DNA of 64,000 nt from Azolla caroliniana (Eukaryota; Plantae; Polypodiophyta), in the NCBI GenBank assembly GCA_043228905.1, contig JBHGNT010000017.1:7874001-7938000 (forward strand), given 5' to 3'. Shown here piece after piece: positions 1,229 through 61,290 of this stretch. How positions within the stretch are numbered: position 1 is the stretch's first letter; the number at the start of each line of letters is the position of its first letter. The notes under the pieces were generated by a model, which had not been told where the DNA came from, searched no databases, and was given only the letters and a program-made list of their open reading frames with translations. The translations under genes and the position numbers were made by a program.

Positions 1229-1887
1229 TCGTATGCTTGAAAATGCAAATAGGCTTTAGGTGTTCTCATTACATTTATATTTACAACATGCTAACGTATG
1301 AGTGTAACCATCACCCCTTTCATTCGTGTGCACAATACACCTTCTCGATTCCACGCGATTTTCACACCGTTGCCGAAAATCTTCACGACAACATCTGCAC
1401 CCATCCTCATCCAAGGTTTCATCTTTCTCCGCTTCAGAGCACCTTTTTATGGGGATGTGATCAAGGAATGGCACGGTGATGTCGGGGATGCAATCTCTCA
1501 ATACCTTGTTCATTGCATTTACCATGTGGGTTACAGAGTTAGTCCCTCCTTGTGGCAAGGTACACATTCGCACAAGGCCGATAGGGGTCCGCATCGTCGT
1601 GACGTCCCTACTCTCCACGGCTAGTTGGAATTGATCATACCTCGAGTATAGATCACCAATCGAATAAATAGACCTTCCAGCGAAGGCCTCGGCGAATTCT
1701 TCAACGCTCGACCTGACCCCCGCATTTTGAATTGTCACTTGGTTAACAGGTTGTAGGTCCTAGATGAAGCGTAAGGTTCCATTCTTCTTTGGCATAGTGA
1801 ACAACCAATTCGAGTATGGGGTGCTTGATGGTTCGAGTATACCCATCTCGATCTTTTCCTTGAGTAGCTCAATCAACTTCGGGATGT

Positions 1888-3858
1888 TGTCAAGATTCGA
1901 ACTCTTGACATAACCATGTTGTAATCGAGTGTTATGTGTTAACCACACATCTAACATATAATCATGTATATACTTCCTCATTGTAGGTTTTAGCTAGCAT
2001 CATGTGCATAATTTCTCCCTTGTATTATTAACACTTGGCACATGCATGCGTACCTACTACCTACATGCTCTATTGTATCACATGCATGCAATAGGTATGC
2101 ATGCCACTTAGTATAAATAGTTAAGTTCACCTTGAAGGAATTCAAGGTGAACAACGCCAATCATGGACATATCAATCTAGTATTCCCATTTTGCCCATCC
2201 TCTCTCCTTGATCTTCATCTCTATCTTTATGCTCTTGTTCCTCGCGTCATCGCTCCGTCATAGCCTCATCATCTGTGCTTTGTCTTAGTCCGCGCTTGGT
2301 GTGTCCATGACAGTTTGTTCACGTTCCAACTAGAAGCATCCCCCGTCTCCGTCATCGCCTTAGCTTCTAGAGTTACCATCGTCACCGTACCATCATCAAC
2401 ATCGCTTCATTTCCTATCTTCCTCGCCGTTTCTATCTCCTAGTTTCTTCTCATAATTTTCATTGGCTTTTAGTTCTCCTCATCATTGTCTCTATTTTTTA
2501 GTTTCTTTCCTGTTCGTGTTCGTGTTCTAGTTCCCAGTGAGGGCTGCACAAGGCCGCTCACTCCCGTTGGTGTTCGTGTTCGAGTTCCTGGTGAGGGCCA
2601 CATGGTCGCTCACTCCTGTTCGTGTTCCAGTCTCCGGTGAGGACCGCACATGGTCGCTCACTCCAGTTATTTTTCATGTTCCATATCCCGGCGAGGACCG
2701 ACATGGTCGCTCATGCCCATTGCGGCTCATGTCTCAGTTCTCGGTGAGGACCACACATGGTCGATTAATCCCGTTCGTGTTCCTGTTCCCGGTGAGGGCC
2801 ACATGGTCGCTCACTCGTTCGTGTTCCATTTCTCGGTGAGGACAACATGGTTGCTCACGCCCGTTGGTGTTCATCTTCCAACTCTCAACGAGGACCGTTC
2901 CAATTCCCGGCAAGGACCCCACATGGTTACTCATGCCCCTTGGTGTTCATGCTCCCTGTGAAGACCGCACATGGTCGCTCACACCCGTTTATATTTGTGT
3001 TCCAGTTCTAGGCGAGGACCACACATGGTCGCTCATGCCCATTGGTGTTAAATACCTCGTCTTGTGGAAGGGTTACTCCTTGTCTAGGGTTTACAAAATA
3101 CTTTACGCCCGTTGGTGTTCGTCTTCCAACTCTCAACGAGGACCGTTCCAATTCCCGGCAAGGACCCCACATGGTTACTCATGCCCCTTGGTGTTCATGC
3201 TCCCTGTGAAGACCGCACATGGTCGCTCACACCCGTTTATATTTGTGTTCCAGTTCTAGGCGAGGACCACACATGGTCGCTCATGCCCGTTGGTGTTAAA
3301 TACCTCGTCTTGTGGAAGGGTTATACCTTGTCTAGGGTTTACAAAATACTTTGGAGGTGATTTAAGCTTTTCATCAACAATATCCCCTTAAGCCGACAAA
3401 CGATTTGGGAAGGCATCATTGGAGGGGGGATAATATCAAGATTCGAACTCTTGACATAACCATGTTGTAATCCAGTGTTATGTGTTAACCACACATCTAA
3501 CATATAATCATGTATATACTTCCTCATTGTAGGTTTTAGCTTGCATCATGTGCATAATTTCTCCCTTGTATTATTAACACTTGGCACATGCATGCGTACC
3601 TACTGCCTACATGTTCTATTGTATCACATGCGTGCAACAGGTATGCATGCCACTTAGTATAAATAGTTAAATTCACCTTGAAGGAATTCAAGGTGAACAA
3701 CGCCAGTCATGGACATATCAATCTAGTATTCCCATTTTGCCCATCCTCTCTCCTTGATCTTCATCTCTATCTTTATGCTCTTGTTCCTCGTGTCATCGCT
3801 CCGCCATAGCCTCATCATCTGTGCTCTATCTTAGTCCGCGCTTGGTGTGTCCATGACA
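1888..3858 (+). mobile_element. Non-autonomous LTR retroelement (TRIM/LARD-like), 1971 bp
   Basis: 425-bp direct LTRs at 1888-2312 and 3434-3858 (TG/TA...CA). 5-bp TSD GATGT at 1883-1887 and 3859-3863. PPT GGAGGGGGGATAA before the 3' LTR. Non-coding interior. Confidence 0.95.
2537..3352 (+). repeat. Internal tandem array of about 45-55 bp units with core GTGAGGACCACACATGGTCGCTCAC; includes a 248-bp higher-order duplication
   Basis: About 13 units visible. 2856-3103 is repeated near-identically at 3104-3352. Confidence 0.9.
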
Positions 3859-5659
3859 GATGTGAGCTCTCGGAACCGTGATTGGTTTGATGTTCCACGG
3901 TACACGCGGTACCGTAAAGATCACCATTGGCTCCACGATCTTAGGGTTTACTGTCCCTATTTCACTCGACGAGAAGGAAGCCACCCCCAGGCAGTAGAAA
4001 GCCACCGGAGCTTCTGTCGCGTCTCATCGGTGAACCGGTGCCCTATGCCTCGTGGGTCCTGCAAGCTAGGATCTTTTGCTACCCTCTTTATCCGATCCCA
4101 ACTATCGTTAGGAAATGTGGCAGCCACAGGCTTCACCTTCTTGTTTGCGGTCTTGTACTTCGTTTGCACCTCGACCGTCCTCGCTTCCTCGATCAACCAC
4201 CCAATCTCTTCGACGACGGTGTACATGTCAACTGAGTTGACTGGAATTACCTTGTCTTCATTGAGGCCCGAAGTGACTCTCCTCTCCATCTCTCCGAGAG
4301 TGTCGTCGAATGAGACCACCTCCATGGCATCGCTTATGGTGTCATCTTCCCCTAATAAATTACATTGTTTGAGATACCTTTTGTATCTCTTGGCCCTAGG
4401 CTTATCTCTATCACTTAAACTAGTAATTTTACAAGATCCATTTTCGGAGAACCAAAATTGTTTCCTATTACATTTAATAGTTTTGCAAGGATTTAGGGTC
4501 TTAGTTTGCCTCGGGCTATTGCGGCCCCACTCTTTAATAGCCCGCATCAAAAATCCTCTCGGCTCTCCCCTTTGAGGGAGGCTCGATTATGCTCATGGTT
4601 GGGCCTCACCGTAAGGAATTGGACCGAATGCTTCCTATCTTGGCTCTTGACCCTCGCATATGCCGACCCATTGTCTAGCACCTTCATCTCCATGTGAGCC
4701 ACCGTGATATATGGTTCACCCAAGATGACCAGGTGCGAGGATGTCTCTTGAACGAAGAAATGTTGATCTATTTCAACATCCCCCACCTTCACCCGTACAT
4801 TCGGACAAGCCCCATATAGGTCCTCTGTTGCTCGGGTCGCCGCTCTAATCTTCCACCCATGCTTCGTGTTGATCGACCACTTTCCCTTTTTAACCTGTTC
4901 GTGTTCACAAGTGGAAGGATCGCGCATTCCACTTATAGATTCCTTTAATAATCTTGCGATTTTAGGTGATTTTCAGAAACTTGATACATCAGTATCACAT
5001 GTTTTAAATAGCATGTAAAATTTGTTAATTTTTTGAGATTTAACAAGTTTCAAAATGATCATTTCTAAAATTGAATAGTTTTTCAATAAATGTTTAAACG
5101 TTGATGGTTTGCAAATATGAAATGTAGTTAACTTAACACACAAGTTAAGATTAATGGTTTCACCATCTTGAGAAGATGTAGGTTCCAGAAGTGGAAGTTA
5201 CATCTATTGTTAGACTTGAAAATGTTTTAAGTATAAGAGGTAACGTTGTAATCCTTAATGCCATCATCTATCAATTTAGTGCTCATTAACATCTATAAAT
5301 TCACAACTCAAGAAATGTATACAATATTCATAAACAATTTTGATAAATCCATAACTCCTAAATTGTAGATGATATTCATAAACTATCAAAACTGTCAAAC
5401 TTAGATGTAAACATTAATATATCAATTTGAACATATCACATTCTTATCAAGGTATCCACGATGCTCTCCTCTTCTTCATTTTGAGAGCTCCCCTACAAAA
5501 TTTGTGATTATTTGGCATTTGCAAGGTTCAATTACCATCAACACAATTATTAATGGTTTTTGTTAATCAAGGAAGCACATGTTCACCATAAGGTATCTTG
5601 TTGTGAAACATACTTCTTTACAACATCGATATGCATCTTTTACTCTTGTCAAAACAAAG

Positions 5660-7947: not shown

Positions 7948-7972
7948 TGTCATGGACGAGTAGGCGAGGCTC

Positions 7973-8010
<38 letters not shown>

Positions 8011-10550
8011 ATAGATCAGAGAACAAGAACTGAATTATGCTTTCATAACTAGTGTTGTTCACCTTGACTAAGGCCAAGGTGAACCCCTGTATTTATACAT
8101 GTTTGTGGGCTCTAAATGTAGTTCCATCTAGAGATTCATTTTCATGCACAAGCTTCTAGAGCTTTCTGGAAGCTTCTAAAATCTCCTACACGTAGAATAG
8201 ATAATCTACAATATATTAAGGTAACATGACCATGTATTGGATGTCTTGGTTAAAACATATCGATTGATTATAATACAGTGGGTCAAGAGTTCGAATCATG
8301 ACATGATTGTTGTCATTCGATGCCAACAAGAGTCTAGAATCTTGTCCACCTCATACTCCTTACCTGTGGAAAGCTCAATTGGGGGTGGAGGTGGAGAGTG
8401 TCTTCCAGGGATAGTGGATGGATGATGAGGTTCAAGAAGAGAGGCATGGAATACATTATGAATCCTGAAATGTGGAGGAAGCGCGAGCCGAAAAGTGGAG
8501 GGGTTGATATTCTCAATGAATCTACAGAAAGGCCCCAACTTCTTGTAGTCCAACTTTCCGCAAGCTCGAGTAGTGTCGACATGGCGACGTAAGAGCCAAA
8601 CTTGATTACCAACTGCAAAGGTGGGTGTGGCTGAGCAATGTCGATCAGCTTGTGTTTTGTACCAATGCCTTGCAAGGATGAGCTCAAGGGAGAGGACTTG
8701 ATGAATGTCGGCTAAAATACGAGCATGTGCTTCTGCTGACGAGTTGATAGAATTGCCAAGGATGGAAATACTAAAGTGAGGATGGAAACCATAGTTGGCG
8801 AAAAATGGGGTGACCCCAGTTGAACCATGTAGCGTATTATTATATGTGAACTTTGTTAGGGGTAGGAGGTCAATCCGATCATCTTGCTGGTAGCTAAGTG
8901 AGCACCGAAGGTATTGCTTGAGAATTTGGTTCACCCACTCAGGTTTGAGGATGATAGGACGAAGACAAATTCACTATAGTGCCTAGTGTTTGAAGGACTC
9001 GTCCCCAAAAACGAGAGACAAATTGGGGTCCGTAATCTAAGGTGACATCGTCCAGGACCCCATGAAGCCGCACCACATTTTTTAAAAATAGATCGGTTGT
9101 TGCTTCCACTGAAATAGTCTTTGCATAGGGGGAAAAATGAGCCATCTTTGTAAACCATCTACCATGACGAGCATTGTGTCATATCCGTGGACTAGAGGAA
9201 AGTCAGTGATGAAATCCATGGAAATTGATGCCCAAGGCCGGTTGGGAATGGGAAGTGGTTGGAGTAATCTATATGGCCTATGGTGGACGACTTTGGATCG
9301 AGCACAAGTACCACATGTCTTGATGAATTCCTTGACGAACATCCACAGTTGAGGCCACCAATATCCTCGTGAGATTAATTCGAGTGTCTTTGTAACACCA
9401 AAATGGCAAGCCAAGGGGTCGTCATGACACTTTTGGAGAACTTGAGTTCGACATCGGCCCTCCGGAACATATAAGAGTTGGTCTCGGTAAAGCAATCCCC
9501 CCTCGAATATGAAGCGATCAAGGTCTTCCTTGCTCTTGGGTTTAGACGGATTAGTAAGACCTTCCTTAATTGCATTAGAGAATTTGTCGATGGGAAGTGC
9601 TTTGGCTATCTCCTCAAGCAAAGAGTCGTCATGGAGCATGCATGTGGCAAAGAGTTGGAATTGATATGGTTTTAGCAAACATTGAGATTGTTGAGCATAG
9701 GCATCATCCCTTGGGCTCAACTCGAAATTCGAGCGTTGTGAAAGAGCATTGACGTTCATGTTTTGTGTCCCTGGTCGAAAGACAATTTCAAAGTCAGCAT
9801 CGGGTTGGGATAAGATGGCACCAATGGCAAAGTCAAAGGCATCTGTTTCAACTTGAAAAGGCTTAGTGGGGTCGACATGAAGGAGGACTAGAGCCTGAGT
9901 AAAAACTTCCTTGAGTATGTCAAAGGCGTGTTGAGCAAATGGAGTCCATTGAAACGGCATCCCTTTACAAGTAAGCTCAATCAAGGGTTGGACTCTGACG
10001 GAGAACCCCTTGATAAATCGCTTATAGAAATTCGTGAAACCAAGGAACGATTGAACATCCTTTACTCGTTTTGGAATGGCCCATTCTTGGATAGTCTTGA
10101 TTTTCCTTGGATCCATGGTGGTGCCCTGGGGTTAGATAAGATAACCAAGAAATTCTATGGAATTGCGATCAAACTCACATTTTTCTATCTTGGCATAGAG
10201 GCCATGCTCCCTGAGTTTCGAGAGAATCAATCGAACGTGGTGAGTATGCTCTTCAATGCTCGACGAGAAGACAAGAATGTCATCAAGGTAGATAACAACA
10301 AAGTGATCACGATATTCTCAAAATAAGTCGTTCATTATATGTTGAAAAACAGTTGGGGCATTGGTGAGTCCAAAAGGCATTACCTTGTAGTCGAAGTGTC
10401 CTTATCGCGTATGAAATGTTGTCTTCCATTCATCACCAGGTTTAATCTGAACCAAGTTGTATGCTTCCCCCCGCAAGTCAATCTTGGAGAAGACATGTGC
10501 ACTACGAAGGCGATCGAGGAGTTGATCCTAGAAATCCTTAAGAGGTAACG
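7948..10550 (-). mobile_element. Truncated Tcn1-like chromovirus (Ty3/gypsy): RT-RNaseH-integrase-chromodomain start plus one LTR (7948-8303)
   Basis: ORFs 9082-10116 and 8296-8934 (FLGFTNFY, ETDAFDFAIGA, zinc finger HDD..H..C..C, GPF, FHASLLEP, EYEVDKILDS). The LTR reads TGTCATGATTCGAACTC...CCATGACA on the minus strand, with a TATA box near 8091. Confidence 0.88.
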
Positions 10551-12197
10551 AGATAAAGTTATATGGGCTTATTGGATATCATTGGTGTGCAAACCTAACA
10601 AATGTAGAAAAAAATTTTAAATGATAGGCACATTTATTTATTTTATATGTATCATAGAAGACACTCAACATTTAATTAATTTATGTTGGGGTTATGCCTC
10701 TAACTAGATCCTTTTCATCAAAGGTTCAAGATGATTGTGTGTTGTACAACATTCAATGGTTATTACTAAGTAAATATCTCACGCAAGCTAGAGTTTACAT
10801 GTGTATCTCTTAAAGATTAAATTATTTTCAATAAGCACAAGTGCGTGCACACACACACACACTCGCTCATGCTCACAAGTGCGCACACAAAATCAAGTTC
10901 ATACACATGGACAAATTACACACCTATATGTCATGTACCATGTAGTTACTATTCAATAATAGTGAATGGTTCATTTAATTTACTGTGATAAACATGAATC
11001 ATTAACAACACTATACACCACTACACACACACATTCCTATTCAACTATGTCTATCCAATTACATGAATATGTGGCAATGAATGGATAGAATACCACTTAT
11101 ATTTCACATATTCATACAACTTATCATAACTTAACCAAGATTCAATGGAAAAAAATGAAAATGAGCTTATCATGGTGATACAAATTTAAGATTACAAGTA
11201 CTATGGGGTTATTTGATTAAAAGAAACGAATAAGTACTTTTCAAAAAGTTATCATTTCCATATATGTACATATGGACACACACATGTTTACATGCAGTGC
11301 ATATGATTTTAGATTCATCTATTTCAATCAGCAAGATTAAAAGAGAGATGAAACAAAGAAGAGTTGAATGAGCACTTATGGATGTATCTTTACATGTTCA
11401 TGTACTTCTACATAATACATTTAATGGAAACACATACACGTAAACGATGAAAAAATTCATTGATATATATGAGCTGGATGTAACCAAGACTGTTCATAAT
11501 AAATCAACACAACTTTTTTTTTCTCTTTCACGTAACAACTTTTCTACACTAAACTAAGGTTTAAACATGGGACATGAAATATCAGTACGTATGTTTTTTT
11601 CGTCTTTTACATAGCAACTTTTCTACGCTATAAACAAATCCTTACCAAGACAATAGGACCAGATGCCCATGTGAAAAACTAATCTCCACCATAACTTTTA
11701 TGGCCAATTGAATCAATTCAAAATTCAAGTGAAAACATCAAATAATCAGAACACATAATGTCCTCGAGGCTTCACAACTTGCCTTGCTCTTTAGGTAGTT
11801 AGGGTAGACAAATATAAATCTTGGAAGTCATATCATGCCAGAATCAAGAAAAATAACTCGTCACAAGGGACATTAATTAGCTCTATATTCACATTCCCAA
11901 AAAGAAATTCATGTTCGTTGATCAAAATCTGAATTGCATTAAACTCTTAATAAAAAAACTTCAAGAAACACCTTAATAAAATATGCCCTACTTGAAGATG
12001 TGATTTGCTTGTTACAATAAGAACATAAGACATCTCTCATGAAGTATTGTGGCCCCACTCAAAACTGTCCTCACAATTACAAAGGAACTTAATCTTTATA
12101 TTACACCTCCACGGCTGGCCTTTGTGAATGAAAGATATCTTGAGGACAATGAATGATTCCAGACATTACGTCACCAAGTTTATTTCGATTTATTTGG

Positions 12198-15100
12198 TCA
12201 AATCATCCGAAGTTCATATTCACCAGCAGTTGTGATATATCGTACCCATGGTAATGCCTGATACCCACTCTTTTCAATGATCTTAAGATACCTTACCTGC
12301 ACAATTCATAAATAGCTGGCATTGATTAAACTAAACACAAATAAATTCCTATTTTAAGGTTTTGGTCTGAAAATCACGTCTCTTTCTGTTCTTCTTTCCT
12401 CAATTCATGTAGCAACACAAGATAGCAGAGCAACTGTGTATGTGCTTCAAGGTTATTCACTGTAACTAATCAAAAAGTAGAGCCCAGATGGGATTATTTT
12501 CAATGGTTCACTAAACATTTAAGAGTAATGTGAATGTATCACCACTGAATATTGTGTGATTTTTACGTAAGATAGCAAAAAAGAAAAAGAAGTGAAATTG
12601 ACACCAACAGATGTCTACAAGGCTGTTTAATGATCAAATTCCCTCACCATGAAGTCTAGAGTATTCTGGTCTTGTAGAGGCATTTGCAATTGCAAGCAAG
12701 AACTCACTGAATGTGCCCTATTTATTGGTTCTCTTTATGGATAAGACTTTCAGAGGATGTAGTTGTCCAATGCACAACTAAGAAATAAAAAATATAGTAG
12801 GATTTGCACAAATATAATGGGTCCTGGAATTGAGACACCAAATGGCATTCAGGGAGCATAGTTTTCCTTCACTCGGAACCATGGGTACTAGCCATCTCAG
12901 AGAAAACCATATATGTGTAAATGATCACTAGTCTCACATATCATGGTGACCATCAGCTTTCTTGGGATATGCAAACAGATCAATGATTCAATGAAAACTA
13001 GACAAGCAATCACATCAATAGTCTATTTCATTGGAATACATATTTGACAAAATCAATGGAATCTGTTATTTCACTTAATGATCGGATGATGTTTCTTAAC
13101 TGGTCCAAAGGACAGCAAAGAATGGACAAAAAGAGTTGAAATAGAGAGGATTAATCTTTAAGACATTTGGCAAGCAACAAGCACCCAAACAAAATCCAAG
13201 TAGCATTAATATCATATCTCTTCTCTATGGCAAAATTATTTTGATGTGTTGGCAAGAAAAATGAGGGGGGATGAATTACAAGTTTCCAAAATGTTGGTTT
13301 TACCTGAATTCCAGACACTGTGAAGTAAGGAATTTCAAATTTGACCCGTATAGGTGGATGCTTTTCAGGTGTGGTCTCCTCAGCTGCAATGCTTGGAAGT
13401 CCAAACTGAGCTCTTAATAAATAGTCCTGCAGAGGCCATACGAAGATATGTCACTTAATTATTACAAGGTAGGTTGATTGTGCCAATGTTCATAAACCTA
13501 CTTTTCCACCAGGAAAGGATTTGATCCTCCATATCAATGCTTCTTTCTCAGGAGCATATACAGCTGACCCCATTGATGTCCGGACAGACGGAGTTGTCGC
13601 ATCTGAGGAGACTGGAAGTTCAATCTCCACATTTGTGGCTGTACTGAAAGATGTAAGATATATTAATACGTCAATCCATTATAACATCATAGTGGCTCAA
13701 ATTATCATTTATTAGGGTATGACTGCAGCACCATTATCTATACAATCATAAACCCAAACAATAACAAAAACTCAGAAGTGAACTCAACTTTACATCCTCC
13801 TCACCTCCGCTCTTTGAATTGACTTCGGGCTTTCACTGTATACTCAACACGACTTCTCGAGTGCCTTTCAACTTGAGCTTCAACCCAAATTAGAGGTTTC
13901 ACCTGCATATCAATAAAGAACCCAACTGATTTATGCTCCTAAAGCTTCCAGATGAGAGGTTTTTTCCTGCATATCAACAAAAATTTAGTCTTTAAAACAA
14001 CTCAAAACTCCTTGTAAGCTTCACCTGAGTATTCAAACGATATGTCATCAGATCAAAAGATCCATCTGGAGGGATAAATGAGATTGTTCGATCATTCTCA
14101 AAGCGTGCCAGACGCACACACCTACAATGGAACACGAAAATTTATGACTTTCACCACACCAGAAATACCCATCCTTTGACCATCTGAAGGTTTCAAATTA
14201 CATACTGATGAAATTTGATGTCATCAAGATCAATCGCCTTCCCCTTAGTAGAGCGTCCTTGTGCCTCCAATAACACTCTATCGTTGAGACCCAGCTTGCA
14301 CTCTGGCATTCCACTAGAAAATTGCACCAAAAGAATAATTCTCATTATCTCAATATTCTTCACATAGTTTCCCCAACAGAAGGTAAAAAGCACTCCATTT
14401 TATTACCTGAGATATGTCCTCATCTTCAATGCCCCCACTACATCAGATCTTACAACTTGCCCATTGCTATTGACCAAAATGTTCACACTCTCAACAACAT
14501 CTAAGAAAACCTGGTAAAGGGCATAAAACTATAAAATGATAAAACTAAAGAGAAAACCACGACCAGTGAAGGATAAGGAGTACCTCATTCTTCTTGTAGC
14601 GAATGCCTTCACTTCTCCAAGAGACTGCATTTGTGACAGCCATTGGAGGACGCTGAGTTACTTCCATCTTGTATGCATCTGTCTTTATGAACTCGCTTAA
14701 AATCTTTGCTTCCGTAAATTGTGGATAACCAAAATCCATCATTTCATCTAAAAGTTCATACTTCAAATTGAGATACCAAACGTAATTAGTTTTAATATAT
14801 TTATCATGGAAAACAAGAAACTATAAAAGCTTTCCATAGACACAGATTTATAACATAATAACAACACTTAAGCATAACTTACCACAACCACAAAGTTGTC
14901 TCGCAATGATTCCTCTTCAAGTTCCTCAAAGTAATGCTTCAAGACCTGAAAATTTGAGACTTGAAGAGTTATCTTTTCACATTGAAAGTAAATCAAAATA
15001 TTACATTTTCAACAAAACTTTTACTCACGTCAATAACCCGATGCAAAAATAGCAAAAGACTTGCAGCATTGCAATTTTGCCTTGCTGCTATCACTACATA

Positions 15101-41618: not shown

Positions 41619-42542
41619 GAGAGAGGGAGGGAGGGAGGGAGGGAGGGAGAGAGAGAGATACCTTAGAGCAACGAGCTGGAGATGTTGCACAATCTGTGAG
41701 CAACGAGCAACGAGAAGAAGGAAATCAGATGACAGGAGCATTGATTGTCAATAAGCAGTGAGATTTGAGAAGGGAGCAAGGTGCAGTGATCTGCGAGGAG
41801 TGAGGATCGAGCAACAAGCAAGCAAGGAGCAAGGAGGAGTGACTCATGAGAAGCGAGTAGAAGAAAATTAGATCACAGACACTATTACGCTCAAAGAGGG
41901 AAAAAAGAGGGGAAAGAGAAAAAGAGGGGAAAGAGGGGAAAAAGAGGGGAAAGAGAAAAAGAGGGGAAAGAGGGGAAAAAGTGGGAATTCAATAAACATA
42001 AAACCTTTTCCTTTTACCTCCTTTTTTTTACAAAACTATATAAATAGCCTGTTTGAAAAATATGAACCGACTAGATTCTGGTTGGTATGAAAACCTAGCC
42101 GGAATTAGTTCCGGCTCTACCTCACATTAGTTGGCAAAAGTCCCAACCTAACTGGAACGCTAACTCTGTTCCTAAGACTTTGCCCAACATTGCTTGTGAC
42201 TAACTACTACCAAAAATTAACGAGGGCAAGTGAGGGAATCGCGGGCGCGGACGGTGCAGGTCACACCGTTGATGGCGCATGTGATCTCCACCGTCCGATG
42301 TGGATAAAAAGCTGACAGGGACTGTCACCAGGAGCCCGACTCTGTCACAAGGAGCCCGACTTTGTCACAAGGAGCCCTGTTGATTGACAGCCTCTGCCAC
42401 GAGGAGCCCAACTTTATCAAAAGGAGCCCTATTGTCTGATAGCCTCTGTCACCAAGAGCCCGACCAACTTTGGGTAGGAACCCGATTCTCAAAAAGATAA
42501 AACTAATAAAGAATAAAACAATCATATATAAAACAAAAGTGA

Positions 42543-42600
42543 ATAGGGTAGTGGTTATAGTTTTTTCTAAGATATGTTAGGTCTATGGTTCAAATCCTTT
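42543..42600 (+). other. tRNA-like A-box/B-box module inside the TIR element
   Basis: TAGGGTAGTGG...GGTCTATGGTTCAAATCC followed by a T-run. Confidence 0.45.
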
Positions 42601-45319
42601 TCTTCTTTGAATTCTTTCTTTTTGGTTTTCTTCTTCTTCGAAAACACTTAACCATATGTTGTTGATTGTACCTTTGTGCCCTAGTATATAAGTTTATAAC
42701 TAGACATTTGCAAAGTTTCATTGATGCAAGTGGACTTATGCTTTAGTTTCTGGATTGAATATTTGTTTTTCTATAACTCTTAAGAGGCTCCTTTTCATAA
42801 TTCATTGATGACATTCCAAATAAGATTGTTCTCCATCTTAGATATCCTCTAATGTGCAATATTCTTGCCAAAGATTAAACAAGTTGACAATTTGAAAAGA
42901 TGAAAAATTGATGTATTGGAGATTTGTAAAGTGGCCTATGCATGGATTGCTACGATAGTGCAATTGATTTCTTAGCAAAGGATGCATGCGAGAATTTTAG
43001 GTGGAATGCCCTTGAACTATTTTGGCAATATGATACAACCAAATAGGTCTTTATAGAAAGTTAAAAGAGTTATTTATTTAATGCTTGCCTACTTCAAAAT
43101 AGCTTGAATACACATATCCATGACTTTGCTTCGAAGGTGATTTTGTAGCTCAAACAATATTGGAAGCAAATACTAGCTGATTTGTGGAAATACAAGTCAA
43201 AGAATGGTCTCCTCATGACATGTTCCATTAGCCAAAGAATTAACAATGTTGTCATCATAGGGCCCCCATGCATCCTTGTGATTTGCTCACTTCTTTTTAT
43301 AGTTGATAATGAGCTACTTCTTTTTACAGCTTTCAAGAGCTCATTTGCCAAATAAAAATAGAATGGCAAGCACCACTACTTCTCCCTAAATGACCACTTA
43401 ACTTCCACAATTATTATATGATAGTTTCGCATCTACAAGTTACAACATGATGAATTCTCGTCTTTTGCAATTGTAGATCTTTTACCCTATGATCCTTCTA
43501 ATTTGCATCGAGCCCTTAACACTTTTGTTCAAGTAAAGTTAGCTCTTACCATTTGGGCTATGTTTGATTGTCACTTTAATATACAACTCACTCATGTTCC
43601 AAGTAAAGTTAACTCTCATAATCTGGGCTTTTTCTTTATTATTTGACTTTATACCATGGAATACTCTACCTATGGATCATGAGCCAACATAAGAAGATAG
43701 GACTCCACCAACAGTTGCCGACACTATTACCACCACCATGTTAGAAATGAACCTGAAAAGTTATATAGCTTTTAACTTCCAACAAAAGGATATGGATACA
43801 AAACCTTGAGACCTCAGATACAAACGATGCACTGGACGACCATGATGTATCCTCCAATTCCTCTCCCGACATGGCAAAGACACATGATGCATTGTGCTCT
43901 CCATAGATGGTTGCGGTCGATTACTATAGTGATTGAAGTGAGTGAATACAATGTGATCGAGAATACCAGTGATTGAGGTGAATGAAGTGAATGTGAGCGA
44001 TTATGCCAATGAATAAAGTGAATGAATTCAAATGAATGCCAATGATTGAAGTTCAAATGAATTCAACGTGATTGATAATGCACATGAATGAAGTGGATGC
44101 TTTCAGTTTCTTCAATGATTTAGTTCGAGAATAATTTCAACACTTCGAGAATGATTTCAGCTCTTAGTGAATGATCAAGAATGCCAACGGTTTGTGAATG
44201 ATTTATGTGGTTTGATTAATCACTATGGTGAATGAAATCAGTGCGAGTGATTAATAGATTGTGAATGAAGTGAATGATTTTAGCTCTTAATGAATGAGTT
44301 CACCTCTTAGTGCATGTTAGTGACTTTGGTGAATCAATTTAGTATGATCGTTAGTATGATCGTTGCAACGCCATCATTTTACGTAGTTGGGCACCTGCCT
44401 ATTAATGAGCCAGGCTCCTCATTAATGAGTAGGGCTCCTCATTAATCAGTCGGGCTCCCTCCTTTGATATGAGTGGGGCTCCTCATTAATAAGTCGGGCT
44501 CCCTCTTTTGATATGAGTCGGGCTCCTCATTGGAAAAATTGGAATGTTGAAATTAGTTAAGCTTCCAAGTGATATATACCATTAATTGATTTTTGAGGAT
44601 TTTGAACATAATCTTCAACCCCCCATATAACATTATTGTAGATTACTTTGTGTACCTTAGTGCAGTGTTCACATAGCCTATCTTCTTCATTATTGACTTA
44701 CTAGGGTGTATGCAACCAAGAAGACCCCCAACCAAGAAACAGGCTTTTACTAAAGCATTGCATACACAGTTTATATAGGTATGAATCCAAAAGCTTCGAA
44801 AATAGAAGGCTTAATCCATTATCTCAAACTCATCAAGTCATGGTATTCCACTTTGAATAAGATTCACATTGAGTCATATACGACCAAAATGAGATTTGTA
44901 TATTGATTTGATATTACAAAATTAACCTTATTGATATGGCCAAGAATATACAAAAAAGGTTGGCCGCCTTGATTCCAAATACAAAAAAGTTGGCAACCTT
45001 CATTCTAGAATATACAAAAAAGGTTGGCAACTGCTTTAGATAGTACATCAAGATCATATATTTGATGTTACATAGTATAACTCCGAATGATGAAAATAAC
45101 CCTAAGCCTAGAGTCCTTTGTGCCCATTTTGCCATGATTTTCCAAAGGAGCTCCACATCTTCGAATCCAAACCATTGCTCCTTACCCTACACCACAAGAT
45201 GCAATCAACCCTAAGCCCTTACAAAAACAAATGCTCATATTCAATCCTACGGGATACTTACAAAATCATTAGACTCAAATCCTTGAATGAACTCCTCAAC
45301 CAACATCCAAATTGTTTGT

Positions 45320-45840
45320 ATCACTTAATACCCACAATTCGTCCCATTAGGTTGGGTCATGGGATATGCAATACATGGAACCGTTCGTTGCTGATGATGC
45401 AATGGTCATGCATGGCGCTAGAGATATGTCGTACAACCAAACCACCCAATGTCTGCATGTTGGTTGTTGGATGATTATTCAGTGGATTACAAAAAACAAT
45501 TGGGCTCCTCCCCTTCTTGGCATCGAGACTTGTAGGAATCTGCCGCATCTTCATCCAAAGCACCCAATGCCCTGTGTGAAATATTGGAATGAAGACATAT
45601 TCCCGTTCAGGGACCCAAGTGAGTATGTTTTCTACCTTATCACTTTGCTCTGCTAGTTGTACCCATAATGGATCAACAATATGAAACCGCTTGTTGATCT
45701 TAGGGGGTAGTGAGTACTCCATCCATAAGTGGAAGAGGTTCCTTGTCCACGTGGATGCCATCTCCCCTAAAGTCCACAACGAACATAGTTCTACCTCAGT
45801 CAAAAAGATTGCTAGATCCAGTCTTTGGCAAGTCACATGA
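45320..45840 (-). pseudogene. Ulp1/C48 SUMO-protease-like domain within the TIR element; upstream exon remnants reach about 47450
   Basis: FHIVDPLW...YVFIPIFHTGHWVL...CNPL, then after a frameshift QPNGTNCG (H...Q.N..CG catalytic pattern). TATA-like CTATAAAA near 47485 on the minus strand. Confidence 0.65.
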
Positions 45841-47917
45841 AACCTGTTTATTCGGCATTTGCATTGGTCTTCTACAACATTGGTGTGACATTTGCATTAG
45901 AAAAACCCAATATATACTTTCTTCAATAATGATTACAAGAATGTACATCAACTCACCATTTAGTTTGACATCTTCAACAAATGGCCCCATGTCGTTTATG
46001 GGGTTCGTATCCATGTTCGAGTCATTCATAGGCTTTTCAGTAATGATGTTTTCACTATCCATATCATTGGATTTGGGGCACCTAGCGCACTTTCTTAACA
46101 AAAACCTAAACCATTAATCAAGTTAGCACACAAACATCACTACTTATACACAATATATAGTTCAGAAATGATTCAGGCCATACCTCCCTTCATAGGGTAT
46201 TGTTTCACCCCAATCTGCATCAAAGTCTATGAAGGTCTTGGACCGACTAGCCATCTGTACAAACCACATGCCATTTTCAATAACCACCAATATGTCCATT
46301 ACATTCAAGTTCAAATTTCACAATCAAAGCACACTAAGAAATCGTTAGATGCATGCAACAATTTTTTATTGATATAGCTAAATAATTGGGAGGAAACAAG
46401 TCCATATATAATAACATATGAAATATTCAATGGAGAAATGTGGAACATGCAAGGTGTCTCCAATAGCATTTCGAATATGGCATATGAGAAGCAAGAAGAA
46501 AAAGGGATACAAAAGAAGCCCATGAAATCAGAGACACCACACAAACATATTATTCATGGTGATTCATATACATTGCATATTAAAATGTTTGAAATATATC
46601 AATTTTCAAATCCTACTTTGATTACAAAGCCTATTGTATGTCTAGAACCATATTTGAGAACCTAGTCCTCTTAATAAGATACCGATGTAGAGTGGAAGAA
46701 TTCAAACGTTTAGAATATGGCATATGAGAAACAAATGGTTCCATATTCAAACATGATTTCCATATTTCGAAGGATCACGTGGAAGAATTCAAACATATAG
46801 AATATGCAAGCACACATACATACATGGTATTCATTGGCTATAATGGCATGTACTCATGGTGATTATATCTATGCTTACAATGCTTAACTAATCTCTACTA
46901 CGTAATATTATCATTGTTGTCATCCAATAGGAAAATAACAAACCTATGATGTGTATCCACATCTATGTGCTTGAAATAATTGCATTCCTATGTATGTAAA
47001 AATGAATACATAAGTGCTCAAGATAATCGTACCTGAGATAACTAAGTACGTGAGATAATCAGTGCCTGAGCAAACATATTTTGTGTTGCTTTGAGCTTAG
47101 TTTCGTTTGGTGGAAAACAATGAACATGGGTTGAAAGAAAATACAAAAATGTTTGTTTCTAATTCAACATTTCTTCATATTGATGGTGAAATTATAACAA
47201 TGCATTTATATGATACATTTAAAAAATGGAACAACTAAGTCTCTCACCTTGTTAGAATATAGAACCATGTGATCAAATGTAAATGAAAAGAAACCCAAAA
47301 TGACGTAAAAAATAAAAATAACCATGAAAATACATACCTATTATTGCCTTCGTTTTGCAGATCGAATGTAGGTGGTTGGGAAGTGCTCGTTGGTGGGAAG
47401 TGATGCTCCTCTCTGATTCTTCCCTCCAAATACCCTAAAACTCTCTTTTCAAAATAGATTCAAAATGAGTGATTCAGGGTTTTTATAGTCAGTGCTCATT
47501 AATAATGAGCGGGGCTCCTAGCCAAACTCTTGATGAATGAGTGGGGCTCCTAGCCAAACTCTTGATGAATGAGTGGGGCTCCTTTTGACAGAGTGGGGCT
47601 CCTAGTGACAGAGGCTGTTAGACATCGGGGCTCCTAGTCAGGCTCTTGATTAGTACGCGGGGCTCCTAGTTGGGCTCCCCAAGAAGTGACGATTTCTTCC
47701 TGTGTTTTTTTTTCACATCGGACGATGCAGATCGCACTTGCCCTGGGCTAAGCGACATGCACCGTCCCTCTCCACGATTCCCTCACTTGCCCTCTTCAAT
47801 TTTTGGAGGTATTTAGACACGTTGCTTGGGTAGGGAATCACAGTCACGGATAGTGCAAGGCGCTTAGTTGAAGGCGCGTCTGATCCTTATGTAATGAATG
47901 CATGCATGCATGTATGT

Positions 47918-56300: not shown

Positions 56301-59300
56301 GACAGTTCTACAACTACGGATCCCAACACCACTTTCGAAATAATCCGGGAACCACGGCCGATCATTATGGCCCAGTCGCAATGTGGGAAAGGCGTACTCA
56401 TGGCGGAAAATGAAGTCCTAGAGTACTTGGACATCCCGGATACAACCCATGAGTTCGGTGCGCTACTACAATTTGGAACAACTTACGAACTCATGGAATT
56501 TTTGGCAATGCAACAAATCAAGGTATCGTAGAGAATGGCGGAGGAGCACGCAGAACAATAGATGATTGAGCGAGCTCTCACATAAACAACGGAAAGTGAG
56601 GATGAAGGGCCCCTAGCCAAGGTAGGCAGGCAACAGAATGCGGGGATTCGGCATATGGGCATTGAACTACCTCCATTGAATGCGACCCTAGTTGAGGTAC
56701 ATTGGGAATTGGCTAGAGTGAGTGTGGGGGCCAAGGATATGGCTAACAAGAATAAAAACTTGTGGAAAACAGTCAAGATGACTCAAGACCAATTACAGAA
56801 GGCCCAAGAGCGCATTACGAAGCTCGAACACAGCATCACTAGGGCACCGCAAAATCCCGAACCAGGTGTCGAATACGAGTGTATAATGGCCGTATTCACA
56901 TTGTCCCTTTGGACAACCCAAGTTTGGGCCATTTCTGTAAATAGCATAAAGGGCAGTTGCCCTAGGATAGTCACTATATAAAGTGACTTTGTAACCCTTA
57001 GTAAAAGGGTTGGTTGTCATTTGTAACTGTTGCTATTAAGAAATAAAATTCTTTTTTTTGCCTATCTATGTGTGTGTACCTTGTTCATTCTCATACAAAG
57101 GTCCTTCAACATCACATATGTTGTTTGTTCTTCTGCACTGACAACCTTGTCCCCAACATTTGGTATCAGAGCGTTGGAGGTTCTTCAACCTGCTGTCGTC
57201 CGTCATAGTATACCACACAACACTATGTTTCTGTTTTCTTGAAGAACAGAGAAGAGAGAAGACAAACAAGAAGTTTGCATCTCACTGTGTTAAATCACTA
57301 CTTGGAGTAAGCTAGCCGGCTGTACTCTGTTCCTGTGATTGTAACCACTTAAGGTGAGCTCCTTGTGCAACACCCGATCCAATCGTGCTTCATTTGGTTA
57401 AACAACATCCGAATAGGTCACCAGACGTTATTCACCCGCTTGCTATAACCATCCGCTGCAGATTGGTCTCCAGGAAACAATCAAATTCGTGCTTCATTCG
57501 GCTGATCGACATTCGGGAGGATCAGTTGGATCCGTCCCTCTCATCGCTGCAGTCATCTGAAGCAGAACAAGCCTAAATAATCGGTTTCTTGTGATCGGTA
57601 TTCGGCATACAATCGGAAGCTAACCGGAGTCACTCCAAGAAGGTTTAGCAAACAAGTATCCGAAACCAAACCGACTTGGGTTCATGACCGACTAGAGCGA
57701 TATCGGGTGAGCCGACCAGCTGCACCCAACTAAGGTTCCTAGTCAACTCTGAACAGAGTCTTACCAACCGAAACCGAATCAGATGGCATCAACATCCGGC
57801 TCATCGGAGATGAGTCTAAGGAGGTTCGACGGTTCGAACATCAACTTCTGGAAGGAACAAATGCAGGACTATCTCATAGTCAAGGGTTAGATAGACCCGA
57901 TTGAGAATGAAAATCCTCCAGAAGCATACAAGGCAAACGAGTGGCTAAAGCTGGACAGAATCGTCCACGCCACGATTTAGATGCACTTGTCGGAGTCAGT
58001 GTACTTCATAGTGCAATCATGCTCGACAACTTTTGAACTTTGGAAAACACTGTCGGAAACTTATGAAAAGAAGTTTGCCGCAACGAAGATGTATCTGATT
58101 CGGCGCCTCTACAACTTGCGGATGAAAGAATCCAATTTGGTTTAGGCACACCTCAACGATTACGAAAGCCTAAGCTCCCAAATATCGTCTAAAGGAACGG
58201 CAATAGAGGATGAACTCAGAGCAATGATACTCATGAGTAGTCTCCCCTCTTCTTGGGAAACTTTCGTCACAACCGTGTGCAATGCTTCAACAACTGCCAT
58301 TAAGTACTCCGAAATCACGAGCGCAATCTTGACTAAAGTAGCTCGGAGAAAGTCTTTCGCCAAAGACTCGGTAGATGAAGCTTACGTAGTACAAGGTTCG
58401 ACCGACCGATCGAACAACCGGAGAAGAAGTTCTTCCCGACCGCCGAACAATCAGCGAAGCCGGAGCAAGTCCCAGGACAACCGAATCTGCAACTACTGCA
58501 AGAAACCGAGACACATCAAAGCTAACTGCCGGGCACTCAAAGCAATAACCAACAAACCTCAGAGAGCGGATCAGAAGAGTAGTCGGCATGAGGAGGTCAA
58601 CTACATCGGCTCTTCAGCCGAAATTTTGATGACCGACCCGAACATACTGTCCATAGAGAACCTAGTCGAATCAGAAGTTCTACTTACGACTGAGGAATCG
58701 AGCACATGGCTCCTGGACTCGGGCGCATCATATCATGTGACACCTCATCGATCTCAGTTTCAGCAATACTCGAACTGGCACTCCGACTCAGTTCGAATCG
58801 GGAAATCGCAACACTGTGCCATAATCGGAATCGGCACCATAGAGGTCAACCTTCCGGGTGGCTCTACACTCGTACTACACAACGTCCGATACGTTCATGA
58901 GCTTTCAAGACCCCTGATCTCAGTCGGACAACTTGACAAAGCTGGCATCCATGCCAAGTTCTCATCAGGAGGGTGGACACTCCACAAAAGGAACCTCCTG
59001 CTTGCTGAGAACCAAAGGTACACTCTTTGTACCCTTTATATGTCACACTCAAAGAGGGTGACTTATTTTTTGTTGATATCCCCGTGTCATTGTTATGGCA
59101 CGGACGAGTTGGACACCTCAGCAAGGCCGGCATAACGCACCTATCCAGAGCCGGTTACATCCCCAAGCTCTCCTTCTCGGATCACCAATTCTACGAGCAT
59201 TGCCAGTATGGCAAACAGGTAGCCACATCACACCCGACATCAGCACCAAGAGAATCGAGTCCCCTCGATTTGGTCCACTCGGATGTCTGTGCCTCGATGC

Positions 59301-60393
59301 CACATCAGTCTATCGGCAGTGCTTCGTACTTCGTCAGTTTTATTGACGAATCGACTCGGAAGGTGTGGGCTTACCCCATTAGAACCAAAGATTGGGTGTT
59401 CTTGATCTTCTCCAAATGGCTTGCAATGGTCGAAAACTAGGACGGTCGGAAACTAAAATGTCTCCGAACCGATAATGGAGGAGAATTCCAGTCTGACAAA
59501 TTCATCAAATTTTGCCGGGAATGCGGCATTCGACGTAAATATACGGCACCCTATAGTCCGGAGCAAAACGGAATTGCTGAATGCATGAATCAGACGATTC
59601 AAGAACGCATAGTATCCATGCTCCAACACTTCGGACTGTCGGATGGCTTCTGGGCAGAGGCTCTACTTACGGCAGGACACATAATAAATATGTCGCCAAG
59701 TAGACAACTAGGACTTAAAATATCTCAGGAAACATGGATTGGCAGTAAGCCGAATTATGACAAGCTGAGGATCTTCGGTTGCGAGGCGTATGCTCTCATA
59801 CCAAAAGACGACCGCCGGAAACTCAAACCAAGATCAAGGAAATGTGTTTTCCTTGGATATGGACCCGACGGCGAGATCAGATACCGACTCTAGGACCCCG
59901 ATCACAGACAAATCGTCCGAAGTTCGGACGTCGTGTTCAACGAGTCGACTATGCACAAAACGGCCGAAAGGCCTATTGAAGTCCGAAGGGTAATATTTTC
60001 CGAAGTGCCAACCCTTCATGAAGGCCCAACCCACAACACGAGATCGGTTTCACAGGTAACCGACACCTCCTGTCCTGAATCCACCGATTCAGCACAACCG
60101 AATGGCTCGGCTTCCGACCATCCGACACCTATACCCGGTGCAACCAGTCCAATCATACCTCGAAGATCTGAGAGACTATCGCAATCTCCGGAAAGGTACT
60201 CTCCCGGAATTTTCTTCACCGACGCTGGTGAACCGACATCTTATGAAGAAGCATCGGCATCTGCCGACTCAAACACCTGGCATTTGGCGATGGAGTCGAA
60301 AATGCACTCCATTTGTGCAAACAAGACTTGGGACTTGGTCGAATTACCAAAGAATCGACGTGCTCTTCCGTGTAAGTGGGTCTATCGACTAAA

Positions 60394-61290
60394 AGCATGT
60401 CCCTCATCTTCGACTTCCACACTGAATAGTTGGAGCCGGTGAGCTTGAACATGCCGCCAAATGATTCGTCCATTTTCTGTGTTGTTTCGCTCTGATACCA
60501 CTTGACGAGAACTGCACGCTCCCTATACGCAACGCTCGGCCACAACCGAACTTAAATCATACACAGAAAACGGGATATAAAGCACGACACAAAGAAGAGA
60601 CGAGTACGCAGGATGTTTATGTGGAAAACTCAAACTAAGGGAAAAACCACGGTAGCCCACAGGCTGCAAACTATCACTATGTTAGAATGTACAACAGTAA
60701 GTTCACGGAGGCAACGACCTCGTGCTCACGATCCTTGGCATAGGCGGCGGTTACAATAGAGGCAACGACCTCTTTCTCTCTCTCTCTCTCTCTGTACACA
60801 GTTACGCGCTCTCTCTTTTCTTGCACCAACAAGAATAACAATCGTTAACTAAAAGTTTGCCCTAAGTCATATTTATACTAATATGACTTTTCGGCTATTT
60901 ACAAATATAGCGATGATGGACTCTCATAAACATATTTACTAATATGTCTCTTCATCCGGTGAGCACTCCTCACCGGGTCTGCACCATCCGGCTCTTCGTA
61001 GTTGGGTACTCCTCATCCGGTCCTCATCGGGTTTGCACCATCCGGCTCTCCGTAGGCGGGTACTCCTCATCCGGTCCTCACCGGGTTTGCACCATCCGGC
61101 TCTCCGTAGGCGGGTACTCCTCATCCGGTCCTCACCGGGTCTGCACCATCTGGCTCTCCGTAGCCGGGTACTCCTCATCCGGTTCTCACTGGGTCTGCGC
61201 CATCCGGCTCTCCGTAGCCGGGTACTCCTCATACGGTTTCGAAGGGATTGTTCTTCTCCCTTCCTATCCGGAGGGACTTGTCTCCGAACA
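60394..61290 (-). mobile_element. Nested antisense copia remnant: 5' LTR (60503-61290), PBS (60489-60500) and gag start; replaces most of the host RT
   Basis: GCTCTGATACCA next to the LTR. gag MDESFGGMFKLTGSNYSVWKSKMRDML. The host ORF jumps from KWVYRLK to HIRRVLERF. Confidence 0.88.
60950..61232. repeat. 54-bp tandem repeat (about 5 copies) in U3 of the nested copia LTR
   Basis: Unit GGGTACTCCTCATCCGGTCCTCACCGGGTTTGCACCATCCGGCTCTCCGTAGGC. Confidence 0.9.

What the first reader, a model, noticed from the sequence alone, without database searches (positions are those of the whole stretch)
2537..3352. Non-coding LTR element whose interior is an array of about 13 bulged RNA stem-loops
Seen: each unit core GTGAG-GACCA-CACA-TGGTC-G-CTCAC folds into two 5-bp helices with a bulged G and a short CACA/ACAT loop. 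Several variants keep pairing through G-U (GACCG/TGGTC, GGCC/GGTC), while the U-rich linkers drift. The element has intact LTRs, a PPT, a self-priming site and a TSD but no ORF. Inference: a multimerised Gag-binding/packaging signal (like an MS2 operator array) that lets a parasite RNA compete with its autonomous helper. The 248-bp duplication shows the array has expanded.
Basis: partly seen in the sequence, partly recalled or inferred. Interest (0 to 1): 0.75.

Follow-up and report, generated by a model that had tools for sequence, protein, structure and literature searches.

The report
Hairpin-array parasite of plant retrotransposons
A family of gene-less plant jumping elements carries a run of about 6 to 25 short repeats predicted to fold into hairpins, has kept that run while apparently swapping its end pieces with different protein-coding relatives, and likely uses it in its RNA as a repeated grip for the borrowed copying machinery, a use not yet tested.

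Summary
Window 1888-3858 is a 1.97-kb non-coding LTR retrotransposon (425-bp LTRs, GATGT target duplication, self-priming site, PPT) with exactly 13 bulged-hairpin cores. It is one copy of a large superfamily: four LTR/3'-end lineages, 85 of 86 PBS-to-PPT copies carrying the array, plus older unit types whose upper stems differ but mostly still pair. Inherited stem changes break pairing less often than copy-private ones (21/74 vs 365/718), strongly in the inner pairs. The signal vanishes when each kind of change is counted once, and RNAalifold finds no consensus, so selection on RNA shape is likely, not proven. The closest helper is a different family (B), not 7948-8303, and no helper tested carries the hairpin. 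The 248-bp duplication is private to this copy, and unit number shows no trend with age. Best reading: a parasite-made, multivalent RNA signal for entering helper particles (about 40%); a neutral minisatellite remains possible (25%). No earlier scan note matched by sequence. New variant of a known kind.

The parts
1883..1887 (+). 5' target-site duplication GATGT
1888..2312 (+). 5' LTR (425 nt, TG...CA); U3+R 86% identical to autonomous family B
2112..2155 (+). TATA box, post-TATA inverted repeat and R-start site (2144-2155) that is complementary to the PBS (self-priming, inferred)
   Evidence: sequence; R site and PBS covary across lineages
2313..2325 (+). Self-priming primer-binding site (one mismatch against the family in this copy)
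2330..2370 (+). Post-PBS inverted repeat (about 9-bp stem), shared by all lineages of the superfamily
2371..2536 (+). Pyrimidine-rich leader (43% T); a shortened form of a longer low-complexity tract in older lineages
2537..3284 (+). Array of 13 bulged-hairpin cores (2537, 2591, 2637, 2691, 2744, 2792, 2836, 2910, 2958, 3012, 3158, 3206, 3260) plus two 5' half-units (about 2888 and 3136)
2857..3352 (+). Copy-private 248-bp tandem duplication (three cores, one half-unit and part of the chromodomain remnant)
3299..3417 (+). Decayed C-terminal chromodomain DNA, about 73-86% like the end of family-B pol, with a deletion
3421..3433 (+). Polypurine tract
3434..3858 (+). 3' LTR (starts TA)
3859..3863 (+). 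3' target-site duplication GATGT; the element sits inside a broken gypsy RT gene on the - strand

Best explanation
This is a non-coding, likely self-priming LTR retrotransposon that likely borrows Gag, RT and integrase from chromovirus helpers (family B for this lineage), and whose interior array of predicted bulged hairpins likely acts in the element's RNA as a multivalent signal for getting into helper particles, by Gag/nucleocapsid binding and/or by pairing between RNA copies. Shown: anatomy, copy number, array in nearly every complete copy, retention across four LTR/3'-end combinations, covarying PBS and R site, absence of the hairpin from the helpers tested. Inferred: transcription from U3; self-priming; capture of new U3/PPT ends by template switching in shared particles; selection on the inner five base pairs and the bulge position; expansion and contraction of unit number by template switching. 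Untested: what binds the hairpin. The signal would be the parasite's own invention, not a multiplied copy of a helper psi.
For: Array kept in 85 of 86 PBS-to-PPT copies across four U3/3'-end lineages; two of the U3 types have coding partners at 85-88% identity. Unit types defined by flanks alone keep the lower helix and bulge while the upper helix changes on both sides: pair 7 A-U/G-U/G-C, pair 8 C-G/U-A, pair 10 A-U/G-C. On a tree built without stem columns, inherited changes break pairing 21 of 74 times against 365 of 718 private ones (OR 0.38, p 2e-4). Without the CpG and G1 sites it is 15/54 vs 274/509 (p 3e-4); for pairs 7-8 only, outside the search anchor, 6/27 vs 90/194 (p 0.02). Inner pairs 3-7: 6/39 vs 175/373 (p 1e-4). 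At pair 7 G-U is common (109 of 394) and A-C rare (6), which favours + strand RNA. Family B Gag has a CCHC-type knuckle by inspection of its DNA, the usual binder of unpaired G (recalled). Cross-packaging of a non-autonomous RNA through its own signal has precedent in VL30 (PMC4859993 passages).
Against: Counting each kind of inherited change once gives 14 keep vs 12 break, no enrichment, so repeated counts of one historical event may drive the p-values. The window's family alone gives no signal (OR 0.65, p 0.19), and pairs 7-8 alone lose significance at stricter thresholds (p 0.08, 0.12). RNAalifold returned no consensus on A1; pairs with two-sided change were reached by 240 of 500 shuffles. 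Widespread types carry fixed breaks (C-A at pair 2 in 70 of 394; G-A at pair 5; C-A or G-A at pair 8 in H2 sub-lineages; a truncated half-unit). G-U versus A-C asymmetry of inherited changes is not significant. No helper has the motif, so there is no known ligand-site precedent. No trend of unit number with age. Units were collected with a lower-helix anchor, which hides badly broken ones.
Confidence: 0.4

Rival explanations
1. Neutral or nearly neutral minisatellite: a short palindromic unit is multiplied and shuffled by RT template switching, and quasi-palindrome correction or chance keeps the arms complementary.
For: Tandem arrays are common in plant LTR elements and of unknown function (PMC11963269 passages). 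Unit number ranges 6-25 with no age trend. Fixed stem-breaking types spread through the family. No signal when event kinds are counted once. Whole-array z -0.72. No RNAalifold consensus.
Against: Array retained in 85 of 86 copies over four lineages with LTR divergences up to about 0.12 while other interior blocks were lost. Bulge and G-U pairs persist, which exact template correction would erase (inference). Inner-pair depletion of inherited breaks.
Confidence: 0.25
2. The hairpins are RNA sites for a host protein (nuclear export, stability or silencing avoidance, in the way multimerised export elements work), needed because the RNA has no ORF; they are not Gag sites.
For: Same structural evidence as the best explanation. 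Absence from helpers fits a need specific to a non-coding RNA. Loop letters are nearly invariant within the main type.
Against: Loops differ among the older types. No Rfam match at gathering score. No host ligand was tested.
Confidence: 0.2
3. The unit is a double-stranded DNA site (inverted GTGAG...CTCAC half-sites for a dimeric factor) acting as an internal enhancer or chromatin signal.
For: The outer half-sites are the most constant letters across types.
Against: Half-site spacing varies from 11 to 15 nt and the inner arms covary as a stem. G-U states are common and A-C rare at pairs 6-7.
Confidence: 0.08
4. The interior is the remnant of an antisense protein gene (Ser-Pro-rich 16-aa repeats followed by Lys/His/Arg/Asp repeats), and the hairpin is incidental.
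For: In one older lineage the - strand reads protein-like, with stop-free stretches of 120-180 codons and mostly 48-nt units. Antisense ORFs beside tandem repeats exist in Retand (PMC11963269 passages).
Against: 13 copies show no synonymous excess (shared 14 S / 34 N / 1 stop against 23% expected), and 16 of 21 gaps break frame. Unit spacings 46, 53 and 44 break frame in the window's family. No Pfam match and no longer homolog (weak evidence by the tool's own note).
Confidence: 0.07

Closest known systems
Tcn1 / Tf1-Sushi-type self-priming chromoviruses (Neumann et al. 2019, PMC6317226 passages; Novikova et al. 2010, PMC2864245 passages)
   Same: No tRNA PBS; PBS complementary to the R start; 5-bp TSD. 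The helper family B has gag, protease, RT, RNase H, integrase, Tf2-like SH3 and a chromodomain.
   Different: The element is non-coding and carries a hairpin array. The passages read describe no non-autonomous hairpin-array partner. Clade placement by phylogeny was not tested.
TRIMs and other non-autonomous LTR elements (Gao et al. 2016, PMC4717578 passages)
   Same: Two LTRs, PBS/PPT, no coding capacity, a related autonomous element; tandem LTR-internal arrangements occur in related metagenome contigs.
   Different: Larger (about 1.5-2.8 kb), self-priming, chromovirus-dependent, and the interior is not a plain deletion of the helper but a unique repeat cassette.
Retrozymes (Cervera et al. 2016, PMC4918200 passages)
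   Same: Gypsy-dependent non-coding LTR elements of similar size with a structured interior, sharing only end motifs with helpers.
   Different: No hammerhead found, no tRNA-Met PBS, no global high stability; structure is a local repeated hairpin.
Internal tandem repeats of Retand/Tat/Ogre elements (PMC11963269 passages); rice Dasheng and soybean SNRE LTR swapping (recalled; the SNRE title was seen in a reference list; the papers were not held)
   Same: Variable-number arrays inside an LTR element; for SNRE, a non-autonomous partner exchanging LTRs with its helper (recalled).
   Different: Here the units are predicted hairpins with covariation, and the array persists across four end types in a self-priming chromovirus system.
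VL30 (PMC4859993 passages) and the MS2 operator array (recalled)
   Same: Non-coding RNA cross-packaged by a helper through its own signal (VL30); a repeated bulged stem-loop as multivalent protein site (MS2, analogy only).
   Different: No binding shown here; no helper counterpart of the hairpin; no sequence relation tested.

Membership tests
Non-autonomous LTR retrotransposon | Two LTRs with TG...CA ends and a target-site duplication | tested here: met
   exact 5-bp TSD in 21 of 31 two-LTR copies; this copy's 3' LTR starts TA
Non-autonomous LTR retrotransposon | PBS and PPT present, no gag/pol | tested here: met
   only a decayed chromodomain tail
Non-autonomous LTR retrotransposon | Dispersed multi-copy family with a related autonomous element | tested here: met
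   81 exact 5' junctions; family B, 146 exact 3' ends, U3+R 86%
Non-autonomous LTR retrotransposon | Mobilised in trans by that helper | not testable with these tools
   inferred from shared ends and overlapping LTR ages
Tcn1 (Tf1/Sushi-related) chromovirus system | Self-priming: PBS complementary to the transcript 5' end | tested here: met
   PBS type and R site covary: P1 with R1 in 46 of 46 and P2 with R2 in 29 of 29 copies where the R site was found (75 of 86); priming itself not shown
Tcn1 (Tf1/Sushi-related) chromovirus system | Helper pol ends in a chromodomain with aromatic cage | tested here: met
   Pfam Chromo E 6e-16; Y, W, Y residues seen (cage positions recalled)
Tcn1 (Tf1/Sushi-related) chromovirus system | RT/RH/INT phylogeny inside the Tcn1 clade | not tested
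   no reference set held; best solved-structure match is Ty3
TRIM | Miniature size; interior derived by deletion of the autonomous element | tested here: not met
   interiors 634-1881 nt; only the PBS and the last about 135 nt match the helper
Retrozyme | Hammerhead ribozyme in the LTRs | tested here: not met
   no Rfam hammerhead even at E<=5
Conserved structured-RNA element | Covariation and purifying selection on base pairs | tested here: inconclusive
   for: (inner pairs); against: (distinct kinds)
Packaging signal (psi) | Specific Gag/NC binding and need for packaging | not testable with these tools
   needs binding and particle-RNA assays

The most novel reading that the evidence does not exclude
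A parasite-evolved, multivalent RNA grip with no counterpart in any helper: a modular R-U5-PBS-array cassette that gets packaged by several different self-priming chromovirus families and renews itself by capturing their U3/PPT ends. It would be a natural MS2-array-like packaging amplifier and a first function for the internal tandem repeats of LTR retrotransposons.
Probability: 0.25. Interest if true: 0.75.

Novelty: new variant of a known kind. Interest (0 to 1): 0.5.

Why it matters
Tandem arrays inside plant LTR retrotransposons are common and their function is stated to be unknown (PMC11963269, passage read). How non-autonomous elements win access to helper particles is also largely unresolved. 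This system offers a small, defined 21-25-nt hairpin with natural compensatory variants, a young helper family with near-identical LTRs, and several end-swapped lineages, so both questions become directly testable. If the array proves neutral, what remains is a tidy example of a self-priming non-autonomous chromovirus partner with covarying priming sites.

Tried and rejected
1) Rfam: only chance-level hits.
2) Origin of the unit from helper chromodomain DNA: looked plausible by eye, but a monomer profile found nothing at E<5 in families A or B. Natural monomers hit that spot in 0-1 of 47 cases in four of five family-A copies and 10 of 47 in one. Lineages lacking the chromodomain tail have the array, and one copy joins the array directly to a longer chromodomain piece. 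Rejected as unsupported.
3) 7948-8303 family (A) as partner: less similar than B.
4) Antisense ORF: no coding signal.
5) More units in younger copies: no trend (46 of 47 copies used, L137 dropped for K 0.37).
6) No coding partner found for the U3c end type (not proof of absence).
7) Expression: no RNA holder listed. Contigs of X1 (probably DNA) and X2 cover parts of the stretch with variants; this says nothing on transcription.
8) Literature: 10 searches returned no title or abstract describing a hairpin-array non-autonomous chromovirus; subscription papers (Dasheng, SNARE) were not held, and no supplements were read, so a mention in REXdb or TRIM tables cannot be excluded.
9) Earlier scan notes: the place look-up showed 8 unrelated notes, the sequence look-up none.
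Rows dropped: L025 and L038 (malformed) from unit counts, leaving 29 of 31 copies; L165 (wrong-strand parse); units with atypical length (994 kept of 1,070).

Full report
Observation. Window 1888-3858 is a complete LTR element: 425-nt LTRs differing at 13 sites (K 0.031), GATGT target duplication, a polypurine tract, and a 1,121-nt interior with no ATG frame over 108 aa. It interrupts a broken gypsy RT gene. The 13 nt after the 5' LTR are complementary to a site 32 nt after the TATA box, not to a tRNA. A covariance model finds exactly 13 hairpin cores on the + strand, 2537-3284 (six of them were in the training set). Single cores mostly fold well (z -0.4 to -3.4), but in the folded whole transcript only 8 of 13 form locally, and the array is not globally stable (z -0.72). 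Rfam gives nothing. The last 135 nt of the interior are decayed chromodomain DNA, and the 248-bp duplication occurs in 1 of 29 copies.

The family. The own genome (523 Mb) holds many copies: 81 exact 5' junctions, with solo LTRs too. Of 34 loci chosen by the PBS region, blind to the array, 19 were new complete copies, 1 repeated an earlier one and 14 had no 3' LTR within the fetched stretch; every complete copy has 6-25 units. Median LTR divergence is 0.025, and unit number does not track age (rho 0.03, n=46).

The helper. A targeted pattern found family B (146 exact 3' ends): 5.29-kb elements with gag and a pol ending in Tf2-like SH3 and chromodomain, U3+R 86% identical, the same post-TATA hairpin and PBS, and very young LTRs (K 0-0.032, n=16). 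This anatomy matches the self-priming Tcn1 chromoviruses of mosses and club-mosses (PMC6317226 passages; PMC2864245 passages); I did not test the phylogeny, and I infer a non-seed plant host only from this. Helper leaders are 30-50 nt long. Neither A, B nor two further families carry the hairpin: no hit at E<1 in 24 loci, no core in 13 of 13 full-length B copies. The array is therefore not a multiplied helper psi.

The superfamily. A diverged junction led to older relatives (119 exact junctions of a second PBS type; LTR K about 0.04-0.12 among well-paired copies). PBS and R site change together: type 1 with type 1 in 46 of 46, type 2 with type 2 in 29 of 29 copies where the R site was found. 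That is good evidence for self-priming. Four combinations of U3 and 3' end occur, while U5 and leader stay 70-84% alike. Two U3 types have coding chromodomain-bearing partners at 85-88%, a third resembles family A's LTR start by eye, and none was found for the fourth. 85 of 86 PBS-to-PPT copies keep at least three units. Genome-wide, a two-unit pattern matches 1,681 times against 11 for the reversed control. Related, partly tandem and chimeric copies occur in 39 metagenome stretches. I infer a mobile R-U5-PBS-leader-array cassette that repeatedly captured helper ends by template switching, as recalled for soybean SNRE (paper not held).

Is the hairpin selected? For: in older lineages extra unit types, assigned by flanking sequence only, keep the 5-bp lower helix and the single bulge but have different upper helices that mostly pair. 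Pair 7 runs A-U, G-U, G-C with A-C rare (228, 109, 37, 6 of 394); pair 8 goes C-G to U-A and pair 10 A-U or G-U to G-C. On 46 natural 25-nt cores, 84.8% of cells pair and the covariation score beats 499 of 500 shuffles, a control that ignores relatedness. On a tree built without stem columns (994 units), changes shared by three or more elements break pairing 21 of 74 times against 365 of 718 private changes (p 2e-4). The result holds without CpG-prone sites (p 3e-4) and for the unanchored pairs 7-8 (p 0.02), and it is concentrated in pairs 3-7 (6/39 vs 175/373, p 1e-4). Against: the window's own family shows no significant signal (p 0.19). RNAalifold gives no consensus. Two-sided pair counts are not above shuffles (240/500). 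Several widespread types have fixed breaks, mostly in outer pairs. Stricter sharing thresholds weaken the test. Counted once per kind, inherited changes are 14 keep to 12 break. Unit shuffling makes one event appear many times, so the p-values are optimistic. I put selection on + strand RNA shape at about 60-65%.

Mechanism. Most likely (40%): the RNA, made from U3, self-primes like its helper and is copied in helper particles; the array supplies many copies of a small bulged stem that Gag/NC binds, or that lets RNA copies pair arm-to-arm, raising its share of packaging and explaining the frequent end swaps. Binding is untested. Rivals: neutral minisatellite (25%), host export or stability factor site (20%), DNA palindrome (8%), antisense protein remnant (7%). 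The last was prompted by a striking protein-like - strand frame in one older lineage, but it shows no synonymous excess, mostly frame-breaking gaps and no homologs.

Comparison. It is a non-autonomous LTR retrotransposon (membership met), works like retrozymes and VL30 in parasitising a helper (PMC4918200 and PMC4859993 passages), but is neither a retrozyme nor a TRIM (PMC4717578 passages). Internal tandem arrays are common and of unknown function (PMC11963269 passages). Ten literature searches (listed under Tried and rejected) showed no such hairpin-array chromovirus partner; I read passages only, no supplements. Verdict: real feature, new variant of a known kind, interest 0.5; 0.75 if the array proves to be a parasite-made packaging amplifier (probability 0.25).

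Noticed in passing
window 7948-10560 (-): Truncated family-A chromovirus (RT to integrase plus 3' LTR) that has lost the chromodomain C-half and PPT by a short deletion; its LTR really starts about 22 nt further out in intact copies.
   Followed up: partly
window 23558-about 29360 (+): Full-length self-priming-type chromovirus of another family (PBS GTTTGAACC, R site GGTTCAAC), LTR stretch 99% identical, pol 50% identical to family B over 512 aa.
   Followed up: partly
window 60503-61291 (-): An LTR with a tRNA-Met-type PBS and five 54-bp repeats in its U3, inserted in a Copia element (56866-62590); gave only a chance-level hit to the hairpin model (E 1.3).
   Followed up: no
window 42196-47820: Long imperfect terminal inverted repeats enclosing arrays of 20-52-bp repeats with a GAGTCGGGCTCC-like core; looks like a non-autonomous DNA transposon.
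   Followed up: no
window 35736-about 36900: 632-bp tandem repeat that includes an LTR-like piece related to the 23558 LTR.
   Followed up: no
window about 12200-14500 (-): Intron-containing host gene whose exons read like an adaptor-complex mu subunit (by eye, recalled motif; not searched).
   Followed up: no
L166, L171, L202, L207, L209, L231 (- strand of interior): Protein-like frame of Ser-Pro-rich 16-aa repeats followed by Lys/His/Arg/Asp 10-11-aa repeats; no coding signal or homolog found, origin unexplained.
   Followed up: yes
window 2330-2370; L124; family B leader (L104): A stem-loop directly after the PBS exists in all lineages (with a two-sided change in L124) and, with different sequence, in family B, where it includes the gag ATG; a better candidate than the array for a structure shared with the helper.
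   Followed up: partly
L236, L239, L258 (metagenome contigs): Tandem LTR-interior-LTR-interior chains and chimeras joining one lineage's PBS to another's U3 or 3' end; may be real tandem elements or collapsed assemblies.
   Followed up: no
L273: Array-bearing copy joined to a longer chromodomain piece than usual: a likely intermediate of 3'-end capture.
   Followed up: partly
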